From the sequence record MT446422.1: a stretch of DNA of 64,000 bases. One strand, given 5' to 3'. The stretch comes from Escherichia virus TH57. A program made the position numbers and the translations under genes. The notes below the pieces were generated by a model. The model did no database searches. It was not told the DNA's origin and saw only the letters and a program-made list of their open reading frames with translations. Below, piece by piece: positions 31,419 through 36,906 of this stretch. Positions within the stretch are counted from its first letter, which is position 1. Each line of letters begins with the position of its first letter.

Positions 31419-31752
31419 TATCGATTTATCTGATTTAGATAATTTCGAGAAAGATGCGGAGGGAGCTAAGGCTCCTTCTGTGCCTTACTACGAAAAAAGT
31501 TTGGAGATTATCCGGCAATCCATGGGAACCGTACGACAGGAAATTCTGTTATCACTCCCTGATGGGTCCAATCACATTGTGTACGTAACCGGAATTAAAA
31601 TTGAACCATCTGGAAAAGTTTCCGTTGATTTCGGCACCCCTTCTGAAGACCGCAAAGCGGAGCTTGCAGTGCATGTAGAAAAGTGTGTTACAATGCAAAT
31701 ACAAGATGAAATTGATAAGATTAAAATGAAAAAGAGGTGGTGGAAGTGGTAG
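31408..31752 (+). CDS. 40: gp40-like protein (positional)
   Basis: 114-aa ORF between uvsX and 41 as in T4. Confidence 0.5.
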   Translation: MMNDIDLSDLDNFEKDAEGAKAPSVPYYEKSLEIIRQSMGTVRQEILLSLPDGSNHIVYVTGIKIEPSGKVSVDFGTPSEDRKAELAVHVEKCVTMQIQDEIDKIKMKKRWWKW

Positions 31753-33176
31753 AAACTATTTTATCCCAGCTACTCTTTAACAAGGAATATTTTGTTAAAG
31801 TCTGGCCATATCTTAATAACACATATTTTGAAAAGGGTCCAGCAAAGACCCTTTTTAATACGATTAACGAACACGTAAAAGAATATCAAGCGGTACCAAC
31901 TAAGACTGCACTTGATATCGCGCTCGACAGTTCTGACCTTTCTGAAGTCGAATATGAAGGCACAAAGAAACTCTTAGGAGTCCTGGCCGATACTCCAGAA
32001 GACCAGGAATGGTTGGTCAAAGAAACCGAGAAGTATGTACAGAAGTCTGCGATGTTCAATGCCACATCCAGGATTATCGAAATCCAGAGTAATGCCGAAC
32101 TTCCAAAAGATAAACGTGATAAACGAATCCCAGATATTGGGGCTATCCCTGACATCATGCGCGATGCATTGTCCATCTGTTTTGACTCTGCTCTGGGGCA
32201 TGACTGGTTAAACGATTACGAAGCTCGATTCCAGACTTATCTGAACAAATCGAAGAAGGTTCCGTTCCGTATTAACATCCTGAATAAAATCACGAAGGGT
32301 GGAGTTGAGTACGGCACAGAGAACGTTTTACTGGCCGGGACAAACGTCGGCAAATCCCTTGGACTTTGTTCGTTAGCGGCTGACTATCTTCAGACTGGTC
32401 ATAACGTGCTTTATATAAGCATGGAAATGGCTGAAGAAGTATGTGCCAAACGTATTGATGCCAACTTGTTGGATGTATCTCTGGATGATATTGATGAAGG
32501 TCATGTGTCATGGGCAGAATACAAAAGTAAGATGGAAAAATGGCGTGCTTCCGGGACTCTCGGGACTCTGAAGATAAAACAATATCCAACTGGGGGCGCG
32601 CATGCGGATACCTTCCGTGCATTACTGAACGAGTACAAACTGAAGCAAGGATTTGTACCGGATGTGATTATTGTTGACTACCTGGCAATCTGCGCAAGCT
32701 CAAGACTGAAAACGTTTACCGAAAACAGTTACGGCCTGATTAAGATGGTTGCAGAAGAACTTCGTGGTCTGGCGGTCGAGAAAAATGTGGTCCTGTGGAC
32801 TGCAGCACAGACAACCAGGGGCGCAAACGTTGCAGCTGAGATTGACATGGCTGACATCGCAGAATCCTTTGGTATTGCTCACACGGCTGACTTTATGTTG
32901 GGTGTTGTTGAGACCGAAGAATTCGCTCAAATGGGACTGCAGTTAATCAAACAGCTTAAGTCTCGTTATGGCGATAAGAACTACTATAATAAATTCAAGA
33001 TGGGTGTTAAGAAAGGTAATCAACGCTGGTATGAGGTTGATGATGATTCAGCTCCTAAACAAGGCCCTACGGTGAAAGAAGCCACTGGTGAGATGAATCG
33101 TCAGGCTGAAATGAATAGACAAACCAGGGTCAACAGGAGCGACCTGGATGACCTTGCCGCTCAAATGAAATTTTAA
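31746..33176 (+). CDS. 41: replicative DNA helicase gp41
   Basis: 476 aa from GTG with GAGGTGG SD, N-terminus aligns with T4 gp41; Walker A GTNVGKS. Confidence 0.9.
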   Translation: MVETILSQLLFNKEYFVKVWPYLNNTYFEKGPAKTLFNTINEHVKEYQAVPTKTALDIALDSSDLSEVEYEGTKKLLGVLADTPEDQEWLVKETEKYVQKSAMFNATSRIIEIQSNAELPKDKRDKRIPDIGAIPDIMRDALSICFDSALGHDWLNDYEARFQTYLNKSKKVPFRINILNKITKGGVEYGTENVLLAGTNVGKSLGLCSLAADYLQTGHNVLYISMEMAEEVCAKRIDANLLDVSLDDIDEGHVSWAEYKSKMEKWRASGTLGTLKIKQYPTGGAHADTFRALLNEYKLKQGFVPDVIIVDYLAICASSRLKTFTENSYGLIKMVAEELRGLAVEKNVVLWTAAQTTRGANVAAEIDMADIAESFGIAHTADFMLGVVETEEFAQMGLQLIKQLKSRYGDKNYYNKFKMGVKKGNQRWYEVDDDSAPKQGPTVKEATGEMNRQAEMNRQTRVNRSDLDDLAAQMKF

Positions 33177-33184
33177 AATATTTT

Positions 33185-33209
33185 AAAAGGGGCTTACAGC
33201 CCCTTTTTC
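33185..33209 (+). terminator. rho-independent terminator
   Basis: GGGGC-TTACA-GCCCC followed by TTTTT. Confidence 0.7.
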
Positions 33210-33215
33210 TTATGT

Positions 33216-33247
33216 TATAATGACCCTATCAACTACTGGAGAATAAA
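33216..33247 (+). promoter_or_regulatory. early promoter cassette, CATCAACTACTG leader type
   Basis: TATAAT, then GACCCTATCAACTACTGGAGAATAAA ATG. Confidence 0.55.
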
Positions 33248-33565
33248 ATGAAAACTATTGATTGCAAAGCGGAATACAAAGTTTATTATCATGGCTCAAG
33301 CTCTAATGCTGGAATCCAAAATATGCTTTGCCCTCCTGATGCAACTGGTGTTCTGTCAGAAGTTGGGCGCAAGAAAAATTTAGGGCGTGTGTTTTTTACT
33401 GAAGATATTGGTTTGGCCCGTATCTATGCAGGAAGAGCAGCTCGCTCGTATGGAGGAGAACCCCGTCTTTATCGTGTGATTGCACCTGTTGACGTGGTTT
33501 GTTTAAATGATACTAAAGGTGCTACAGTTTATCACGCTGACTGGGCCTTCTGTGAGGAAATCTAA
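33248..33565 (+). CDS. hypothetical protein
   Basis: 105-aa ORF directly behind a terminator-promoter cassette, between 41 and dmd. Confidence 0.5.
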   Translation: MKTIDCKAEYKVYYHGSSSNAGIQNMLCPPDATGVLSEVGRKKNLGRVFFTEDIGLARIYAGRAARSYGGEPRLYRVIAPVDVVCLNDTKGATVYHADWAFCEEI

Positions 33566-33778
33566 ATGTATAAATTAGAGAACGTAGTGTTTATTGGTTG
33601 GTTTGAAAATGGTAATATGTTTACCAAAGAAACTGCACTAGATGTTAGCGACCAAAATATGATTGAATGGGTCACAGTGCAGTATGCAGAAGTGAATAAT
33701 GCGCTGGTGAAAGCCTTTGTTAATGACAATAAAGTTTTTGAATATGATTATCGTATCCACTTATCTGAGGAAATCTAA
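33566..33778 (+). CDS. dmd: Dmd antitoxin (inhibitor of RnlA/LsoA-type toxins)
   Basis: 70 aa; VVFIGWFENGNMFTKE...YAEVNNALVKAFVNDNKV closely matches recalled T4 Dmd; position downstream of 41. Confidence 0.75.
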   Translation: MYKLENVVFIGWFENGNMFTKETALDVSDQNMIEWVTVQYAEVNNALVKAFVNDNKVFEYDYRIHLSEEI

Positions 33779-34120
33779 ATGGCTTTTAATCCAGAAGACC
33801 GCGTAAAAGTAACAATCAAAGTGAGTGCTGTTGGTGTACCATCTTTTGAACGTTCTAGCATGTTCCACCCAGCAGGTATTCACTGGTATGTCCAGAAGAC
33901 TGCTGATAACTATAATGCACTGGTTGAAGCTTTTGTTGATGACAAGCTAATTCATAAAGTAGACATGCGTAAGGGTACTGCATTGCGTAATCTGATTTTG
34001 ACCGTTGAAGCTCAACTGGTAAATGAAGAAATCTGCCTTACTGATATTGAAGCAGCTCTTCATATTGCGCGTGCTGAATATTACAACTTGACTGGTTTTT
34101 CAGTTGAAGGCGAAAAATAA
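33779..34120 (+). CDS. Dmd-like paralog
   Basis: 113 aa; shares the NALVEAFVDDKLI core with the adjacent Dmd. Confidence 0.5.
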   Translation: MAFNPEDRVKVTIKVSAVGVPSFERSSMFHPAGIHWYVQKTADNYNALVEAFVDDKLIHKVDMRKGTALRNLILTVEAQLVNEEICLTDIEAALHIARAEYYNLTGFSVEGEK

Positions 34121-34178
34121 GTGTACAACAAAGGGATAATGCTGTATATTATCCCTATCAACTACTGAGGAGATTGAA
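34121..34178 (+). promoter_or_regulatory. early promoter cassette with inverted repeat, CATCAACTACTGA leader type
   Basis: GTGTAC; AGGGATAAT...ATTATCCCT inverted repeat around -10; TATCAACTACTGAGGAG leader. Confidence 0.55.
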
Positions 34179-34472
34179 ATGAAAAAGTTATTAATTGCAG
34201 CAATTCTTACCGTAGCATCATGTGGTACAGCTCCAGTTACTGCTGGGCTTGATAAAGACCTTTGTGAGTGGTCTATGACCGCTGACCAGACTGATGTTGA
34301 ACATCAGATTTATGCTGATATCATGAACATAACTAAACGTGACCGTCCTGATATGGTTAAAGAAGTGTCTGACCAACTGGCTTCTGGTGACGTTATGCAG
34401 TATAACTATGTTCTGTATTGCGATGCTTCATTCGACAACAGCAAAATTGTTCAATGGGTTACAGGTGAATAA
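34179..34472 (+). CDS. sp: spackle-like periplasmic protein Sp
   Basis: 97 aa, signal peptide with lipobox-like VASC; size and position match T4 sp; CEWSMTADQT motif. Confidence 0.6.
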   Translation: MKKLLIAAILTVASCGTAPVTAGLDKDLCEWSMTADQTDVEHQIYADIMNITKRDRPDMVKEVSDQLASGDVMQYNYVLYCDASFDNSKIVQWVTGE

Positions 34473-34473
34473 A

Positions 34474-34911
34474 ATGATTAACAGAAATTTGGTTATCAAA
34501 AAACTTCGCTGTAAAAATCCAAATGCGCAAGCATACAGAGTGTTTTGGAGCGACGAGATTCAATATCTGGGTTATTTTCTTGTTGACAGTGATAATAGAA
34601 TTACGTTTGCTCATAAGCTTCTTAACAAAGAATTAAACCATTGGCAAGAACTTATTGCAGTCAAGTCTAAATTATTTTCATGCAATGCAATGCACCAATT
34701 GGTTTATTTTTTCGCTGATGGTATTCCTGACAAGGTTGAGTTTGAAGGGTTTGAATTTAAAGACATCAATCCAGACAATGAATTGAATAATGATGTTGTT
34801 AATATGGGTATCCCTGGTAAGTACATCAAAAACAGTCTTTTGAAAATTCTGGAAAATCCTGTTTATTCAGTTGACGACCAAATTTTTAATGCCTTTATGA
34901 AGCGAGATTAA
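34474..34911 (+). CDS. hypothetical protein (61.2 position)
   Basis: 145 aa from in-frame ATG after sp stop; C-terminus DDQIFNAFMKRD. Confidence 0.5.
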   Translation: MINRNLVIKKLRCKNPNAQAYRVFWSDEIQYLGYFLVDSDNRITFAHKLLNKELNHWQELIAVKSKLFSCNAMHQLVYFFADGIPDKVEFEGFEFKDINPDNELNNDVVNMGIPGKYIKNSLLKILENPVYSVDDQIFNAFMKRD

Positions 34912-34912
34912 T

Positions 34913-35269
34913 ATGAGTTATTATAATTTTCTGAATTTTGAACTGGCCAGCAATAATGATGGTAATGCTCGTTATGAATTTCGTGAGCCTCGGTTTAATC
35001 AGGCGATTGGTTATATTATCGTTAAAGATGATGTTATCATAAAGGCTCGCTCATTTATGGTAATGGATGGACCTTATGAAGATACTCGTGGATACCCATT
35101 TGATAAAAAGAATGTGCGCGATTGCGCAATCTGGATAACTGGGAACCCTGAAATTGGGGTCATGATATCTACTGAAGCGAATGACATTCTGGAAGGGGTA
35201 GCCAAAGCTCAAGAACCGCCTACTGATATTGATGACCAGATTTTTAATGCCTTCATGAAGCGAGGTTAA
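34913..35269 (+). CDS. hypothetical protein (61.1 position)
   Basis: 118-aa ORF; C-terminus DDQIFNAFMKRG repeats the upstream gene tail. Confidence 0.5.
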   Translation: MSYYNFLNFELASNNDGNARYEFREPRFNQAIGYIIVKDDVIIKARSFMVMDGPYEDTRGYPFDKKNVRDCAIWITGNPEIGVMISTEANDILEGVAKAQEPPTDIDDQIFNAFMKRG

Positions 35270-35270
35270 T

Positions 35271-35492
35271 ATGTTTGTTTTGACCCAATTCTCTAAAGCA
35301 ATATATAGTTACTCTTGCCAGTGGGAAGTCTTTATTGATACTCCTTCGCCTAAGTATGGTGTTTTTGGACGAGTAACTACTCAAGCTTATGTTGCACGAC
35401 CGACTAAACGTCAGATTCGTAAACTTAAAAAGGCACATCGTCAATTGATTAAAAGAAGGGAACAATATGAGTGCAATGTGTACGGGCTCTAA
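35271..35492 (+). CDS. hypothetical basic protein
   Basis: 73-aa ORF. Confidence 0.45.
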   Translation: MFVLTQFSKAIYSYSCQWEVFIDTPSPKYGVFGRVTTQAYVARPTKRQIRKLKKAHRQLIKRREQYECNVYGL

Positions 35493-35658
35493 GATTTCGG
35501 TCTTCCAGATTTTTGAAGAATATGAAATCGTGTCGCAAGACCAAGAAGCAATCCATGTTATCGCTGATGATGGTGTTACCTGGATTATTCCGTTGTATCA
35601 TGAAGACACTTATGAAGTGACTGATGCAAATGGTGATAAAGCTATCTTCGTTGTATAA
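35467..35658 (+). CDS. hypothetical protein
   Basis: 63-aa ORF. Confidence 0.45.
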   Translation: MSAMCTGSKISVFQIFEEYEIVSQDQEAIHVIADDGVTWIIPLYHEDTYEVTDANGDKAIFVV

Positions 35659-35661
35659 ATA
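35654..35661 (+). promoter_or_regulatory. late promoter TATAAATA
   Basis: exact TATAAATA 17 nt upstream of the 35678 ATG. Confidence 0.5.
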
Positions 35662-35677
35662 GCGGAAAGGGGGTGTT

Positions 35678-35845
35678 ATGAAAACATTCAAAGATTTTAT
35701 AAACGAAGATATGGTTGCCGGTGATGCAGGTGGAAACCCAACTAATATCGCAACAGGTACCACTTCCGGGGCAGTTGTCAATAAAGGCCCTGAACAAATC
35801 CCATCAAAAAAGCGTAAGAACAAAGACGATAAACCTACAGTATAA
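35678..35845 (+). CDS. hypothetical small protein, possibly late-expressed
   Basis: 55 aa, AAAGGGGG SD, K/R-rich tail, followed by GGTCCC-CC-GGGACC hairpin; not in track. Confidence 0.4.
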   Translation: MKTFKDFINEDMVAGDAGGNPTNIATGTTSGAVVNKGPEQIPSKKRKNKDDKPTV

Positions 35846-35877: not shown

Positions 35878-36906
35878 ATGTCATATATTGATAAAGAATT
35901 TGCGGTCAGAGCTTTATCGTATCAACCACGTTATAGAGAAGTCACCGGGAGCACATTTAAAGCAAACTGTCGTTGTAAGGTTTGCGGGGACTCCCAGAAA
36001 GATTCACATAAGGCTCGATTCTGGGCGTATACCAATCCGTCTGATGGTGCGGTTTACGTGAAATGTTTTAACTGTGACTACTCCACGCATATAAGCAAAT
36101 ACATAAAAGAGTTTGAGCCGGATTTGCACCGGGAATATATGGTTGAGAAGTACAAGGAAAATGCCTTCGGTCGACAACGTAATGAAGTTGCAGAAACTCC
36201 GAAAGAACCAGAAAAAACTCCGGTTATTGAAGAGCTTGCTTTTTGCGAAAGAATCGATACTTTACCAGAAGCACATCCGATAGTTAAGTATGTGAAAAGT
36301 CGGTGTATTCCGAGCAATGTTTGGAACCGGTTATGGTTTACAAACAAATGGCCTGCATTAGTTAACTCCGTTAATCCTGGGACGTATAAGAATGAAACGA
36401 ATGAACCACGCTTGGTTATTCCTATCTTCAACGGCAAAAAAGAAATCGAATCTTTCCAAGGACGAGCTCTTCGCAAAGATGCACCACAAAAATATATCAC
36501 AATCAAAGCTCACCCAGAAGCTTCCAAAGTCTATGGCGTAGACAAGATTGATGAGCGCAAGCGCGTGTGGGTAATGGAAGGTCCGATTGATAGTTTGTTT
36601 ATCCCTAACAGCATTGCGATAACCGGTGGAACATTAGCATTGGAAGCCGTTCCTTATGCTGAAACCCGAGTATGGGTAATGGACAACGAGCCAAGACATC
36701 CGGATACGATTAAACGTATGAAGAAACTCGTTGAAGCTGGCGAAGCTGTTATGTTCTGGGACAATGCACCATGGCATACGAAAGACATAAATGAGATGGT
36801 TAAATCGGAGGGTGCAACCCCTGAACAAATCGAATCATATATGGCCGATAACGTTGCTCAAGGGCTGATGGCGAGAATGCGACTTTCGAAGTACGCAAAA
36901 GTTTAG
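35878..36906 (+). CDS. 61: DNA primase gp61
   Basis: 342 aa; N-terminal zinc ribbon CRCKVCGDS...CFNC; same length as T4 gp61. Confidence 0.9.
   Translation: MSYIDKEFAVRALSYQPRYREVTGSTFKANCRCKVCGDSQKDSHKARFWAYTNPSDGAVYVKCFNCDYSTHISKYIKEFEPDLHREYMVEKYKENAFGRQRNEVAETPKEPEKTPVIEELAFCERIDTLPEAHPIVKYVKSRCIPSNVWNRLWFTNKWPALVNSVNPGTYKNETNEPRLVIPIFNGKKEIESFQGRALRKDAPQKYITIKAHPEASKVYGVDKIDERKRVWVMEGPIDSLFIPNSIAITGGTLALEAVPYAETRVWVMDNEPRHPDTIKRMKKLVEAGEAVMFWDNAPWHTKDINEMVKSEGATPEQIESYMADNVAQGLMARMRLSKYAKV

What the first reader, a model, noticed from the sequence alone, without database searches (positions are those of the whole stretch)
33186..34120. Tandem Dmd antitoxin and Dmd-like paralog, preceded by a cassette-borne extra ORF
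ORF 33566..33778 (70 aa) closely matches T4 Dmd, the inhibitor of host RnlA/LsoA mRNA endonuclease toxins. The next ORF (33779..34120, 113 aa) shares the NALV(K/E)AFV(N/D)D core, which suggests a diverged second Dmd-like protein that could target a different toxin. Just upstream, a terminator-promoter cassette introduces a 105-aa unknown ORF (33248..33565) between 41 and dmd. A divergent antitoxin paralog would be a candidate counter-defence specificity.
Basis: partly seen in the sequence, partly recalled or inferred. Interest (0 to 1): 0.6.

Follow-up and report, generated by a model that had tools for sequence, protein, structure and literature searches.

The report
Dmd antitoxin plus diverged two-domain paralog
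A T4-like coliphage carries, right after its normal Dmd anti-toxin gene, a rare second gene whose first half has the Dmd fold with a changed, charge-inverted surface and whose second half is a small helical module, which makes it an untested candidate inhibitor of some other bacterial defence.

Summary
ORF 33566-33778 is a true Dmd (Pfam 72.6 bits; T4 Dmd 5hy3_B E 1.4e-16). ORF 33779-34120 (113 aa) is homologous to Dmd over the whole domain, not only the NALV-AFV core: BLASTP E 3e-6, hhalign 91%, reciprocal HMM hits. A model built without any Dmd sequence matches Dmd crystal structures best (TM 0.87-0.94). It differs from Dmd in three ways. The beta2-alpha1 loop is 9 residues shorter. The domain is basic rather than acidic. 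A 48-aa helical hairpin is fused to its C-terminus, and that hairpin also occurs alone or on other proteins in other phages. The gene is under purifying selection (dN/dS about 0.14) and is very rare: two clusters among 1.84 billion representatives.

It is extra only relative to T4. It is a conserved mini ADP-ribosyltransferase with an Arr-like fold, found in 609 phage records, and its pairing with dmd was already noted by Iyer et al. 2022. The variable gene is ORF113. It sits in the dmd-sp slot, where T4 and close relatives carry tifA (anti-ToxN).

Best reading: a re-targeted Dmd-fold counter-defence protein with an unknown target. This is a new variant of a known kind, of moderate interest, and its function is untested.

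The parts
33185..33207 (+). Stem-loop (intrinsic-terminator-like) downstream of gene 41. It overlaps the -35 element of the next promoter, which is the PeSL-type architecture.
   Evidence: 10-bp stem with 5 GC pairs, a 3-nt loop and a T-run. The architecture follows the description in PMC2839356 and PMC4122927, which were listed but not read.
33193..33238 (+). Early-type promoter (CTTACA, 17-nt spacer with TG, TATAAT) followed by the conserved leader CCCTATCAACTACTG
   Evidence: for the promoter. repeat D1 shows the same sequence upstream of sp at 34145-34167. One search finds the leader motif 6 times in the window, all on the + strand, against 0.14 expected.
33248..33565 (+). ORF105: mini ADP-ribosyltransferase-fold protein (Arr-like, probably the 'p0068-like' H-Y-[EDQ] family)
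   Evidence: phrog_2110 at E 1.3e-58. 115 homologous clusters and 609 phage records, some annotated as ADP-ribosyl transferase. AF2 model pLDDT 88.3. Top Foldseek PDB hits are Arr 2hw2 and 9iaf (probability 1.00, TMq 0.63), then Tpt1/KptA, PltA, ParT and PARPs. H15 and G16 are invariant. hhalign against Arr-2 gives E 2.9e-4.
33554..33568 (+). Coupling junction GAGGAAATCTAAATG (Shine-Dalgarno, stop of ORF105, start of dmd)
   Evidence: the window holds exactly two copies, against 0.04 expected.
33566..33778 (+). dmd: canonical Dmd antitoxin (70 aa)
33767..33781 (+). Second copy of the junction GAGGAAATCTAAATG (stop of dmd, start of ORF113)
33779..33973 (+). ORF113 N-domain (aa 1-65): diverged Dmd-fold domain, basic, with a 9-residue shorter beta2-alpha1 loop and an N-terminal extension of about 10 aa
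33974..34120 (+). ORF113 C-domain (aa 66-113): acidic two-helix hairpin ending in SVEGEK. The same module occurs alone or on other proteins.
   Evidence: helices at 67-82 and 88-105; standalone proteins of 50-55 aa (P0135, P0136, P0138); the ESCO10 50-aa ORF; a 174-aa Phapecoctavirus protein in phrog_27940.
34122..34167 (+). Next promoter and leader cassette, upstream of sp. It closes the ORF105-dmd-ORF113 unit.

Best explanation
The window comes from a Gaprivervirus (T4-like coliphage). The stretch 33185-34120 is one early transcription unit bounded by promoter/stem-loop cassettes. It encodes three translationally coupled small proteins: a mini ADP-ribosyltransferase (ORF105), canonical Dmd, and ORF113.

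ORF113 is an old, diverged duplicate of the Dmd fold fused to a 48-aa acidic helical hairpin. I infer that it is a stoichiometric protein inhibitor. In this view it works like Dmd, by plugging a host effector, but against a target other than the one Dmd covers. That target could be a different RnlA/LsoA-type or other nuclease toxin. The hairpin would add a second contact surface or an oligomerisation surface.

What is shown: homology, fold, domain architecture, purifying selection, rarity, and the swap-site position. What is inferred: inhibitor function, altered specificity, and the role of the hairpin.
For: Homology and fold.
- BLASTP E 3e-6.
- hhalign 90.9%.
- Reciprocal HMM specificity.
- AF2 model pLDDT 84.8, built from an alignment with no Dmd sequences.
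- Top PDB hits are Dmd 5i8j and 5hy3_B, with TM 0.87-0.94 and rmsd 0.9-1.7 A. The next hit has E 0.43.
- BFVD gives Dmd of phage AR1 with TM 0.93.

Functional gene.
- dN/dS is 0.14 against the 62%-identical VR7 allele, with saturated synonymous sites. This is the same as dmd (0.145) and sp (0.135).
- It has the same Shine-Dalgarno/stop/start junction as dmd.

Changed surface.
- 12 of 23 Dmd-invariant positions are kept, mostly core residues (W, A, L, V, A, F, D, R).
- There are charge swaps at K49E, E59K and Q39K. The pI is 8.1-9.3 against 4.3-5.2 for Dmd.

Counter-defence context.
- The same 41-61 island holds dmd, tifA (61.4), sp and 61.2 in T4 (tifA = 61.4 per PMC10853763).
- The dmd-sp slot holds a tifA homologue in T4 and in DK-13.
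- It holds both genes in VR7.
- It holds nothing in SP18.
- It holds ORF113 here.
Against: - There are no functional data.
- The Pfam Dmd score is below the gathering threshold (19.1 against 27 bits).
- The basic surface argues against the same binding mode in the positively charged HEPN groove, so the target may not be an RnlA-family toxin at all.
- AlphaFold2 may have seen 5hy3 and 5i8j in training, so the fold match is not fully independent of the known structures.
- The interface residues of Dmd could not be mapped, because Wan et al. 2016 is not held.
- The family is tiny (two alleles), so conservation analysis is thin.
Confidence: 0.5

Rival explanations
1. ORF105-dmd(-ORF113) is a phage-borne type II toxin-antitoxin-like module. 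The ADP-ribosyltransferase is the toxin or effector. Dmd, and possibly the Dmd-like ORF113, are its cognate neutralisers or regulators. ORF113 would then act on the phage's own enzyme and not on a host toxin.
For: - Iyer et al. 2022 (PMC9503650) proposed exactly this pairing: a 'p0068-family ART' with a Dmd antitoxin in Escherichia, Shigella and Salmonella phages.
- The three genes are translationally coupled in one unit.
- ORF105 has an ART fold with the invariant H-G motif.
Against: - The two families are distributed independently.
- Dmd occurs without the ART next to gene 41 in T4 and in the five Tequatrovirus-type loci sampled.
- The ART occurs in Klebsiella (116), Acinetobacter (68) and Aeromonas (62) phage records, host groups that are not among those listed for Dmd.
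- In three sampled phages the ORFs downstream of the ART are not Dmd-like.
- T4 Dmd has a proven host target (RnlA/LsoA; PMC5308261, PMC8266594).
- ORF113 is absent from most phages that carry ART-dmd.
Confidence: 0.15
2. ORF113 is a second RnlA/LsoA-family inhibitor with the same binding mode as Dmd. This would be a simple specificity variant that covers Dmd-resistant RnlA/LsoA alleles.
For: - Same fold and conserved core.
- Tandem position and identical expression signals.
Against: - Domain charge is inverted.
- Half of the Dmd-invariant positions are lost, including W12, K21, Q39, N44 and K49.
- The loop is 9 residues shorter and there is an extra domain.
- Nothing here tests binding.
Confidence: 0.2
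3. ORF113 is a decaying or functionless duplicate kept by hitch-hiking in a hyperplastic region.
For: - Very narrow distribution: two clusters among 1.84 billion representatives and 14 phage records with a full-length copy.
- It is lost or replaced in close relatives.
Against: - The ORF is intact in both alleles, which are 62% identical, with dN/dS 0.14 in both domains and saturated synonymous sites.
- The predicted fold is confident.
- The Shine-Dalgarno/start junction is conserved.
Confidence: 0.07

Closest known systems
T4 Dmd (gp61.5; PF17587; PDB 5hy3_B with LsoA; RB69 Dmd 5i8j)
   Same: The ORF113 N-domain has the same beta-beta-alpha-beta-beta fold (TM 0.87-0.94) and 31-39% identity. 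It keeps the conserved core W..A....A(L)V.AF......D.R. It has the same early-gene island downstream of gene 41 and the same translational signals.
   Different: - ORF113 is below the Pfam threshold.
- It is 113 aa with an added helical hairpin.
- It has an N-terminal extension of about 10 aa and a loop that is 9 aa shorter.
- The domain is basic where Dmd is acidic.
- About half of the Dmd-invariant residues are replaced.
- Activity on RnlA/LsoA is unknown.
TifA (T4 gp61.4), inhibitor of ToxN
   Same: It occupies the same genomic slot (between dmd and sp) in T4 and in close relatives of this phage. It is also a small early protein that neutralises a host TA toxin.
   Different: There is no sequence similarity to ORF113. 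The window carries a separate divergent TifA-like gene at 35271-35492.
Rifampin ADP-ribosyltransferase Arr (PDB 2hw2, 9iaf; PF12120) and the 'p0068-like' viral ART family of Iyer et al. 2022
   Same: The ORF105 model matches Arr best. It shares the Y-H-G-[ST] motif and the following hydrophobic [FY]-[ST] strand motif. It is a minimal single-domain ART.
   Different: - ORF105 is 105 aa against about 140-150 aa.
- No individual member reaches the Pfam Arr-ms cut-off (best E 0.084).
- The Tyr of H-Y-[EDQ] is Phe in most members.
- The catalytic acidic residue is not assigned.
- The substrate is unknown and is unlikely to be rifampin.
PeSL promoter/stem-loop cassettes of T4-type phages (Arbiol 2010, Comeau 2014)
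   Same: A stem-loop overlaps the -35 element of an early promoter. The cassette is dispersed in several copies and flanks variable gene sets.
   Different: I did not read the published PeSL consensus, so only the architecture was compared.

Membership tests
Dmd (PF17587), for ORF 33566-33778 | Sequence match above the Pfam gathering score, and match to solved Dmd structures | tested here: met
   72.6 bits against a cut-off of 27. 5i8j E 3.1e-22 and 5hy3_B E 1.4e-16.
Dmd (PF17587), for ORF113 | Sequence match above the Pfam gathering score | tested here: not met
   19.1 bits against 27. Other measures are significant: phrog_2102 E 8.8e-6, BLASTP E 3e-6, hhalign 90.9%.
Dmd (PF17587), for ORF113 | Dmd fold (beta-beta-alpha-beta-beta) | tested here: met
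   The prediction used no Dmd sequences in the alignment. The top three PDB hits are Dmd chains with TM 0.87-0.94. BFVD gives Dmd with TM 0.93. This is a prediction only.
Dmd (PF17587), for ORF113 | Single-domain protein of 60-70 aa with the family's invariant residues | tested here: not met
   113 aa in two domains. 12 of 23 invariant positions are kept, and 9 of 23 in both alleles.
Dmd (PF17587), for both ORFs | Binds and neutralises RnlA/LsoA HEPN toxins | not testable with these tools
   This needs co-expression or binding assays. No complex prediction tool was available.
ADP-ribosyltransferase, H-Y-[EDQ] clade (Arr-like / p0068-like), for ORF105 | ART fold | tested here: met
   Model pLDDT 88.3. 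Foldseek gives Arr 2hw2/9iaf at probability 1.00 and TMq 0.61-0.63. Most of the next-best hits are ARTs (Tpt1/KptA, PltA, ParT, PARPs).
ADP-ribosyltransferase, H-Y-[EDQ] clade, for ORF105 | Catalytic triad H, Y, E/D/Q | tested here: inconclusive
   H15 is invariant within Y-H-G-[ST]. The position aligned to the Arr Tyr is F50 (Y in a few members). Y60 is invariant. The acidic residue is not assigned; D82 and E103 are candidates.
Arr-ms (PF12120), for ORF105 | Pfam gathering score | tested here: not met
   No hit for the window protein. 5 of 50 family members hit at E 0.084 or weaker. A profile search of PDB sequences found nothing.
Type II toxin-antitoxin pair ART-Dmd (Iyer et al. 2022) | Strict co-occurrence and adjacency of the two genes | tested here: not met
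   The genes are adjacent here and in Mosig-, Dhaka- and Gapriverviruses. Dmd occurs without the ART in T4 and sampled T4-type loci. The ART occurs in Klebsiella, Acinetobacter and Aeromonas phages where Dmd was not seen, followed by unrelated ORFs in the three loci sampled.
Type II toxin-antitoxin pair ART-Dmd | Toxicity of the ART and its neutralisation by Dmd | not testable with these tools
   This is an experimental question.
PeSL cassette | Stem-loop overlapping an early promoter, repeated in the genome, flanking variable genes | tested here: met
   The published consensus was not compared.

The most novel reading that the evidence does not exclude
ORF113 is a new two-module anti-defence protein. 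The Dmd fold has been re-surfaced (acidic to basic) to neutralise a host effector unrelated to RnlA/LsoA. The portable SVEGEK helical hairpin is itself a reusable inhibitor or adaptor module, since it also occurs alone next to Zn-ribbon mini-proteins and fused to another domain in Phapecoctaviruses. This would make the Dmd fold a general scaffold for phage antitoxin mimics, and the dmd-sp slot a swap site for anti-TA cassettes.
Probability: 0.3. Interest if true: 0.65.

Novelty: new variant of a known kind. Interest (0 to 1): 0.45.

Why it matters
Dmd is one of the few phage proteins known to inhibit a host toxin directly. It has been treated as a single, uniform 60-70-aa family. A selected, diverged, domain-fused paralog encoded next to dmd, in the slot where relatives carry the anti-ToxN gene tifA, is a concrete and cheap-to-test candidate for a new counter-defence specificity. 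It could also show how phage antitoxin mimics diversify, by duplication, surface re-charging and fusion to portable mini-modules. The result also corrects the record for ORF105. That gene is a widespread mini ADP-ribosyltransferase with no known substrate, and the proposed toxin-antitoxin relation to Dmd is weakened by the distribution data.

Tried and rejected
- The word-indexed homologue search for ORF113 found only its own cluster. The exhaustive representative search added one full-length cluster and three C-domain minis. It also returned a 620-aa repeat protein whose match to 'KTADNYN' I take as chance.
- NCBIfam gave nothing for any of the five small ORFs searched, ORF105, dmd and ORF113 among them.
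- PADLOC gave only a weak AbiEii hit at E 0.0045, which I discarded.
- A profile search of PDB sequences with the ORF105 family found nothing. Only the fold search and hhalign showed the link to Arr.
- Wan et al. 2016, which describes the LsoA-Dmd interface residues, is not held. I therefore could not map interface residues onto ORF113.
- One literature search was swamped by Duchenne 'DMD' papers.
- I first recalled the T4 gene order as 41-61-...-dmd. The T4 record shows 41-dmd-61.4-sp-61.2-61.1-61, colinear with the window, so I dropped the idea of a rearrangement.
- I tested whether the small ORFs downstream of the ART in Klebsiella, Acinetobacter and Aeromonas phages, or upstream of the standalone C-domain minis, are hidden Dmd-like proteins. 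They are not.
- The apparent second Dmd piece in phage OLB35 is a frameshift in an 'UNVERIFIED' record and not a tandem copy.
Full report
**What the window is.** The region is 95-98% identical to Gapriverviruses (T4-like Straboviridae), with the best match to Escherichia phage EAWsc9, followed by TH15, PSD2001, phage 212 and VR20. The + strand gene order is as follows:

| Gene | Coordinates | Note |
|---|---|---|
| gp41 helicase | 31737-33176 | |
| ORF105 | 33248-33565 | |
| dmd | 33566-33778 | |
| ORF113 | 33779-34120 | |
| sp (spackle) | 34179-34472 | |
| ORF142 | within 34339-34911 | |
| ORF118 | 34913-35269 | only its last 15 residues match AdfA/61.2 |
| DUF7279 ORF | 35271-35492 | |
| two small ORFs | 35467-35845 | |
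| gp61 primase | 35878-36906 | |

This order is colinear with T4, where it runs 41-dmd-61.4-sp-61.2-61.1-61. I had recalled the T4 order differently, and the T4 record corrected me.

**Checking the observation.**
- The 70-aa ORF is a canonical Dmd. Pfam PF17587 gives 72.6 bits against a cut-off of 27.
- It matches RB69 Dmd 5i8j at E 3.1e-22 and T4 Dmd 5hy3_B at E 1.4e-16. Identity to T4 Dmd is 57%.
- The NALV-AFV core shared with ORF113 is real and is only the most visible part of a longer similarity.
- BLASTP aligns ORF113 residues 16-64 with Dmd 6-63 at 31% identity, E 3e-6 for the single comparison.
- Profile-profile comparison gives 90.9% probability.
- PHROG Dmd matches at E 8.8e-6.
- In a search of about 2,700 stop-to-stop ORFs from the window and the related loci, the Dmd HMM hit only Dmd proteins and the ORF113 family. 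The ORF113 HMM hit only its own family, the standalone C-domain proteins and Dmd proteins, T4-type ones included.
- The Pfam score of ORF113 (19.1 bits) is below the family's threshold, so it is not a member by Pfam's own rule.

**Structure.** I predicted ORF113 from an alignment that held only its own family and standalone C-domain proteins, with no Dmd sequence.
- The model is confident: pLDDT 84.8, with strands at 9-17, 23-29, 47-53 and 56-62, a helix at 31-45, and then two helices at 67-82 and 88-105.
- Against the PDB, the only significant hits are the three Dmd chains. These are RB69 5i8j_A/B and T4 Dmd from the LsoA complex, 5hy3_B. Target-normalised TM is 0.87-0.94 and rmsd is 0.9-1.7 A. 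The next hit has E 0.43.
- Against viral predicted structures, the order is the VR25 orthologue and then Dmd of phage AR1, with TM 0.93.
- One caveat: AlphaFold2 may have been trained on those two entries.

**How ORF113 differs from Dmd.** The comparison rests on alignment A6 and the counts.
- ORF113 has an N-terminal extension of about ten residues.
- It lacks nine residues of the beta2-alpha1 loop.
- It keeps 12 of the 23 positions that are invariant in my Dmd alignment. Those kept are mostly core residues: M18, F19, W35, A41, A46, L47, V48, A50, F51, D61 and R63.
- It replaces W12, K21, Q39, N44, K49 (to E) and E59 (to K).
- The Dmd-like domain is basic (pI 8.1, and 9.3 in the VR7 allele). 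Dmd is acidic (pI 4.3 here, 5.2 in T4).
- Residues 66-113 form an acidic (pI 4.4) helical hairpin that ends in SVEGEK.

**The C-terminal hairpin is a portable module.**
- It occurs as standalone proteins of 50-55 aa (P0135, P0136, P0138).
- It is a 50-aa ORF between dmd and sp in Dhakavirus ESCO10, preceded by a 46-aa CxxC...CxxC mini-protein.
- It follows a similar 42-aa Zn-ribbon-like ORF in an unrelated 135-kb phage contig.
- It forms the C-terminus of a 174-aa protein of Phapecoctaviruses, in phrog_27940.
- No library assigns it a function.

**Is ORF113 a real gene, and how common is it?**
- The exhaustive search of 1.84 billion representatives found only two full-length clusters. One is the window type (P0001). 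The other is the VR7/VR25 type (P0134), at 62% identity.
- Among 50,697 phage records, ten carry the window type and four carry the VR7 type (VR7 and VR25, each held as two records).
- Between the two alleles, synonymous sites are saturated (pS 0.71) while pN is 0.25. This gives dN/dS of about 0.14, the same as for dmd (0.145) and sp (0.135). The protein is therefore under purifying selection.
- gp41 next door has dS of only 0.16, so the small-gene island is a mosaic of much older alleles.

**Which gene is the variable one?** It is ORF113, not ORF105. The slot between dmd and sp differs between relatives:

| Phage | Content of the dmd-sp slot |
|---|---|
| T4 | tifA (61.4) |
| Gaprivervirus DK-13 | 79-aa tifA homologue |
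| Yersinia phage P8 | Zn-ribbon mini plus tifA homologue |
| ESCO10 | Zn-ribbon mini plus C-domain mini |
| VR7 | ORF110 (the ORF113 allele) plus a 61.4-like gene |
| SP18 | nothing |
| this window | ORF113 |

- In SP18, Dmd ends in ...YDYRSNEK*. Its last bases, CGAAAAATAA followed by GTGTACAAC, are the same as the end of ORF113 and of the C-domain genes (...EGEK*).
- I read this as a deletion scar, meaning loss of the cassette in SP18-type phages. This is an inference from one alignment.
- The upstream boundary of the slot is the 15-nt junction GAGGAAATCTAAATG (Shine-Dalgarno, stop, start).
- That junction occurs exactly twice in the window, at ORF105/dmd and at dmd/ORF113. It recurs at the same junctions in relatives.
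- The downstream boundary is the promoter/leader cassette in front of sp.

**The cassette and ORF105.**
- The stem-loop at 33185-33207 overlaps the -35 element of a CTTACA-17-TATAAT promoter.
- The -10 element plus the leader TATAAT..CCCTATCAACTACTG is repeated before sp. The leader motif occurs six times in the window, all on the + strand, against 0.14 expected.
- This is the architecture described as PeSL in T4-type phages (PMC2839356 and PMC4122927, listed). I did not compare it with their consensus.
- ORF105 is extra relative to T4, where dmd follows gene 41 directly. It is nevertheless a conserved family, with 115 clusters and 609 phage records across Escherichia, Klebsiella, Acinetobacter, Aeromonas, Enterobacter and Vibrio phages. 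Several records annotate it as 'putative ADP-ribosyl transferase'.
- Its model (pLDDT 88.3) matches rifampin ADP-ribosyltransferase Arr best: 2hw2 and 9iaf, probability 1.00, TMq 0.61-0.63. The next hits include Tpt1/KptA, pertussis-like PltA, ParT and PARPs.
- H15-G16 in Y-H-G-[ST] is invariant.
- hhalign against Arr-2 aligns YHGS with YHGT and RVFFT with HIYFS, at E 2.9e-4 and 40% probability.
- Pfam Arr-ms is not reached.
- Iyer et al. 2022 describe a 'p0068 family' ART paired with Dmd in Escherichia, Shigella and Salmonella phages and propose a phage type II toxin-antitoxin system (PMC9503650). ORF105-dmd fits that description. I could not check accession numbers.

**Testing the TA idea with distributions.**
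- Dmd is found in 798 records, mostly Escherichia and Shigella phages. The five T4-type loci sampled have no ART within 2.5 kb of dmd, and T4 has dmd directly after gene 41.
- The ART is found in at least 246 Klebsiella, Acinetobacter and Aeromonas phage records. Those host groups do not appear among the ten listed for Dmd.
- In Matisse, Konradin and phiAS4, the ORFs coupled downstream of the ART are unrelated to Dmd.
- Each gene therefore exists without the other. This weakens an obligate toxin-antitoxin relation but does not exclude regulation where they co-occur.

**Mechanism.** My best-supported account has two parts.
- Shown: ORF105, dmd and ORF113 lie in one unit bounded by early-type promoter cassettes, and they share coupling junctions.
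- Inferred: ORF113 acts like Dmd, as a stoichiometric protein inhibitor of a host effector. Its specificity is changed by the re-charged surface and the shorter loop. The hairpin supplies an extra contact or an oligomerisation surface.
- The context fits this reading. T4's 41-61 island holds Dmd (anti-RnlA/LsoA; PMC5308261, PMC8266594) and TifA (anti-ToxN; PMC10853763). It also holds spackle and 61.2; that 61.2 is the anti-DarT factor AdfA is from my own knowledge and the name of the Pfam family. ORF113 replaces tifA in the slot next to dmd.
- Because the Dmd-like domain is basic, I consider a target other than the RnlA/LsoA groove somewhat more likely than a simple allele-tracking variant. 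Nothing here tests binding.

**Novelty and verdict.**
- Dmd, the ART-Dmd pairing and the promoter cassettes are known.
- I found no description of a diverged, domain-fused Dmd paralog. All records call it hypothetical, PHROG 23762 has no assigned function, and one literature search was uninformative.
- I rate it a new variant of a known kind, of moderate interest. It is a well-defined, testable counter-defence candidate with no functional evidence yet.

Noticed in passing
window 35271-35492 (+): This 73-aa ORF (Pfam DUF7279, E 3.3e-20) is a divergent TifA/61.4-like protein. It is about 39% identical to the ORF directly downstream of dmd in Tequatroviruses, and it shares the RPTKRQIR..KKA.R motif with T4 gp61.4. 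The phage therefore has a TifA-like gene in a different place from T4, while ORF113 sits in the tifA slot.
   Followed up: partly
window 34913-35269 (+) and 34483-34911 (+): Two adjacent ORFs (118 aa and 142 aa) end in the same tail, DDQIFNAFMKR(G/D). That tail also matches the last 15 residues of Pfam AdfA (anti-DarT factor A, T4 gp61.2). The rest of each protein is unrelated to AdfA. This looks like a shared C-terminal tag on different N-domains.
   Followed up: no
window 1753, 15592, 33224, 34153, 40869, 55574 (+): The leader motif (T/C)CC(T/C)ATCAACTACTG occurs six times, all on the + strand, against 0.14 expected. It appears to mark a dispersed family of early promoter/leader cassettes across the window.
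   Followed up: partly
L005 1849-1989 (ESCO10), L030 975-1094 (Yersinia phage P8), L022 2380-2508: Mini-proteins of 39-46 aa with CxxC...CxxC (Zn-ribbon-like). In ESCO10 and in the unrelated 135-kb contig L022 they are translationally coupled to the standalone SVEGEK hairpin protein. In P8 the mini-protein is followed by a tifA homologue instead. The pairing in two different phage groups may be a conserved two-gene module of unknown function.
   Followed up: partly
window 31737-33176 versus 33248-34472: There is a sharp mosaic boundary. gp41 differs from VR7 by dS 0.16, whereas ORF105, dmd, ORF113 and sp differ by dS 0.8 to more than 2. The small-gene island has a much older or foreign ancestry than the flanking core gene.
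   Followed up: partly
L005 (OM386655.1, ESCO10) and MW233709.1 (UPEC01), PP693301.1: The product names in these public records are clearly shifted or wrong in this region. Dmd is called 'zinc ribbon domain-containing protein', spackle is called 'modifier of transcription', and the ART is called 'clamp loader subunit'. Annotation-based surveys of this island would be misled.
   Followed up: no
L002 1665-1913 and 1993-2295; L003 1665-2294: Some close relatives (phage 212, SP18, PSD2001) carry two further ORFs of 82 aa and 100 aa between gene 41 and the ART. The 82-aa ORF is annotated goF-like in SP18. Both are absent from the window, which makes this a second indel polymorphism in the same unit.
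   Followed up: no
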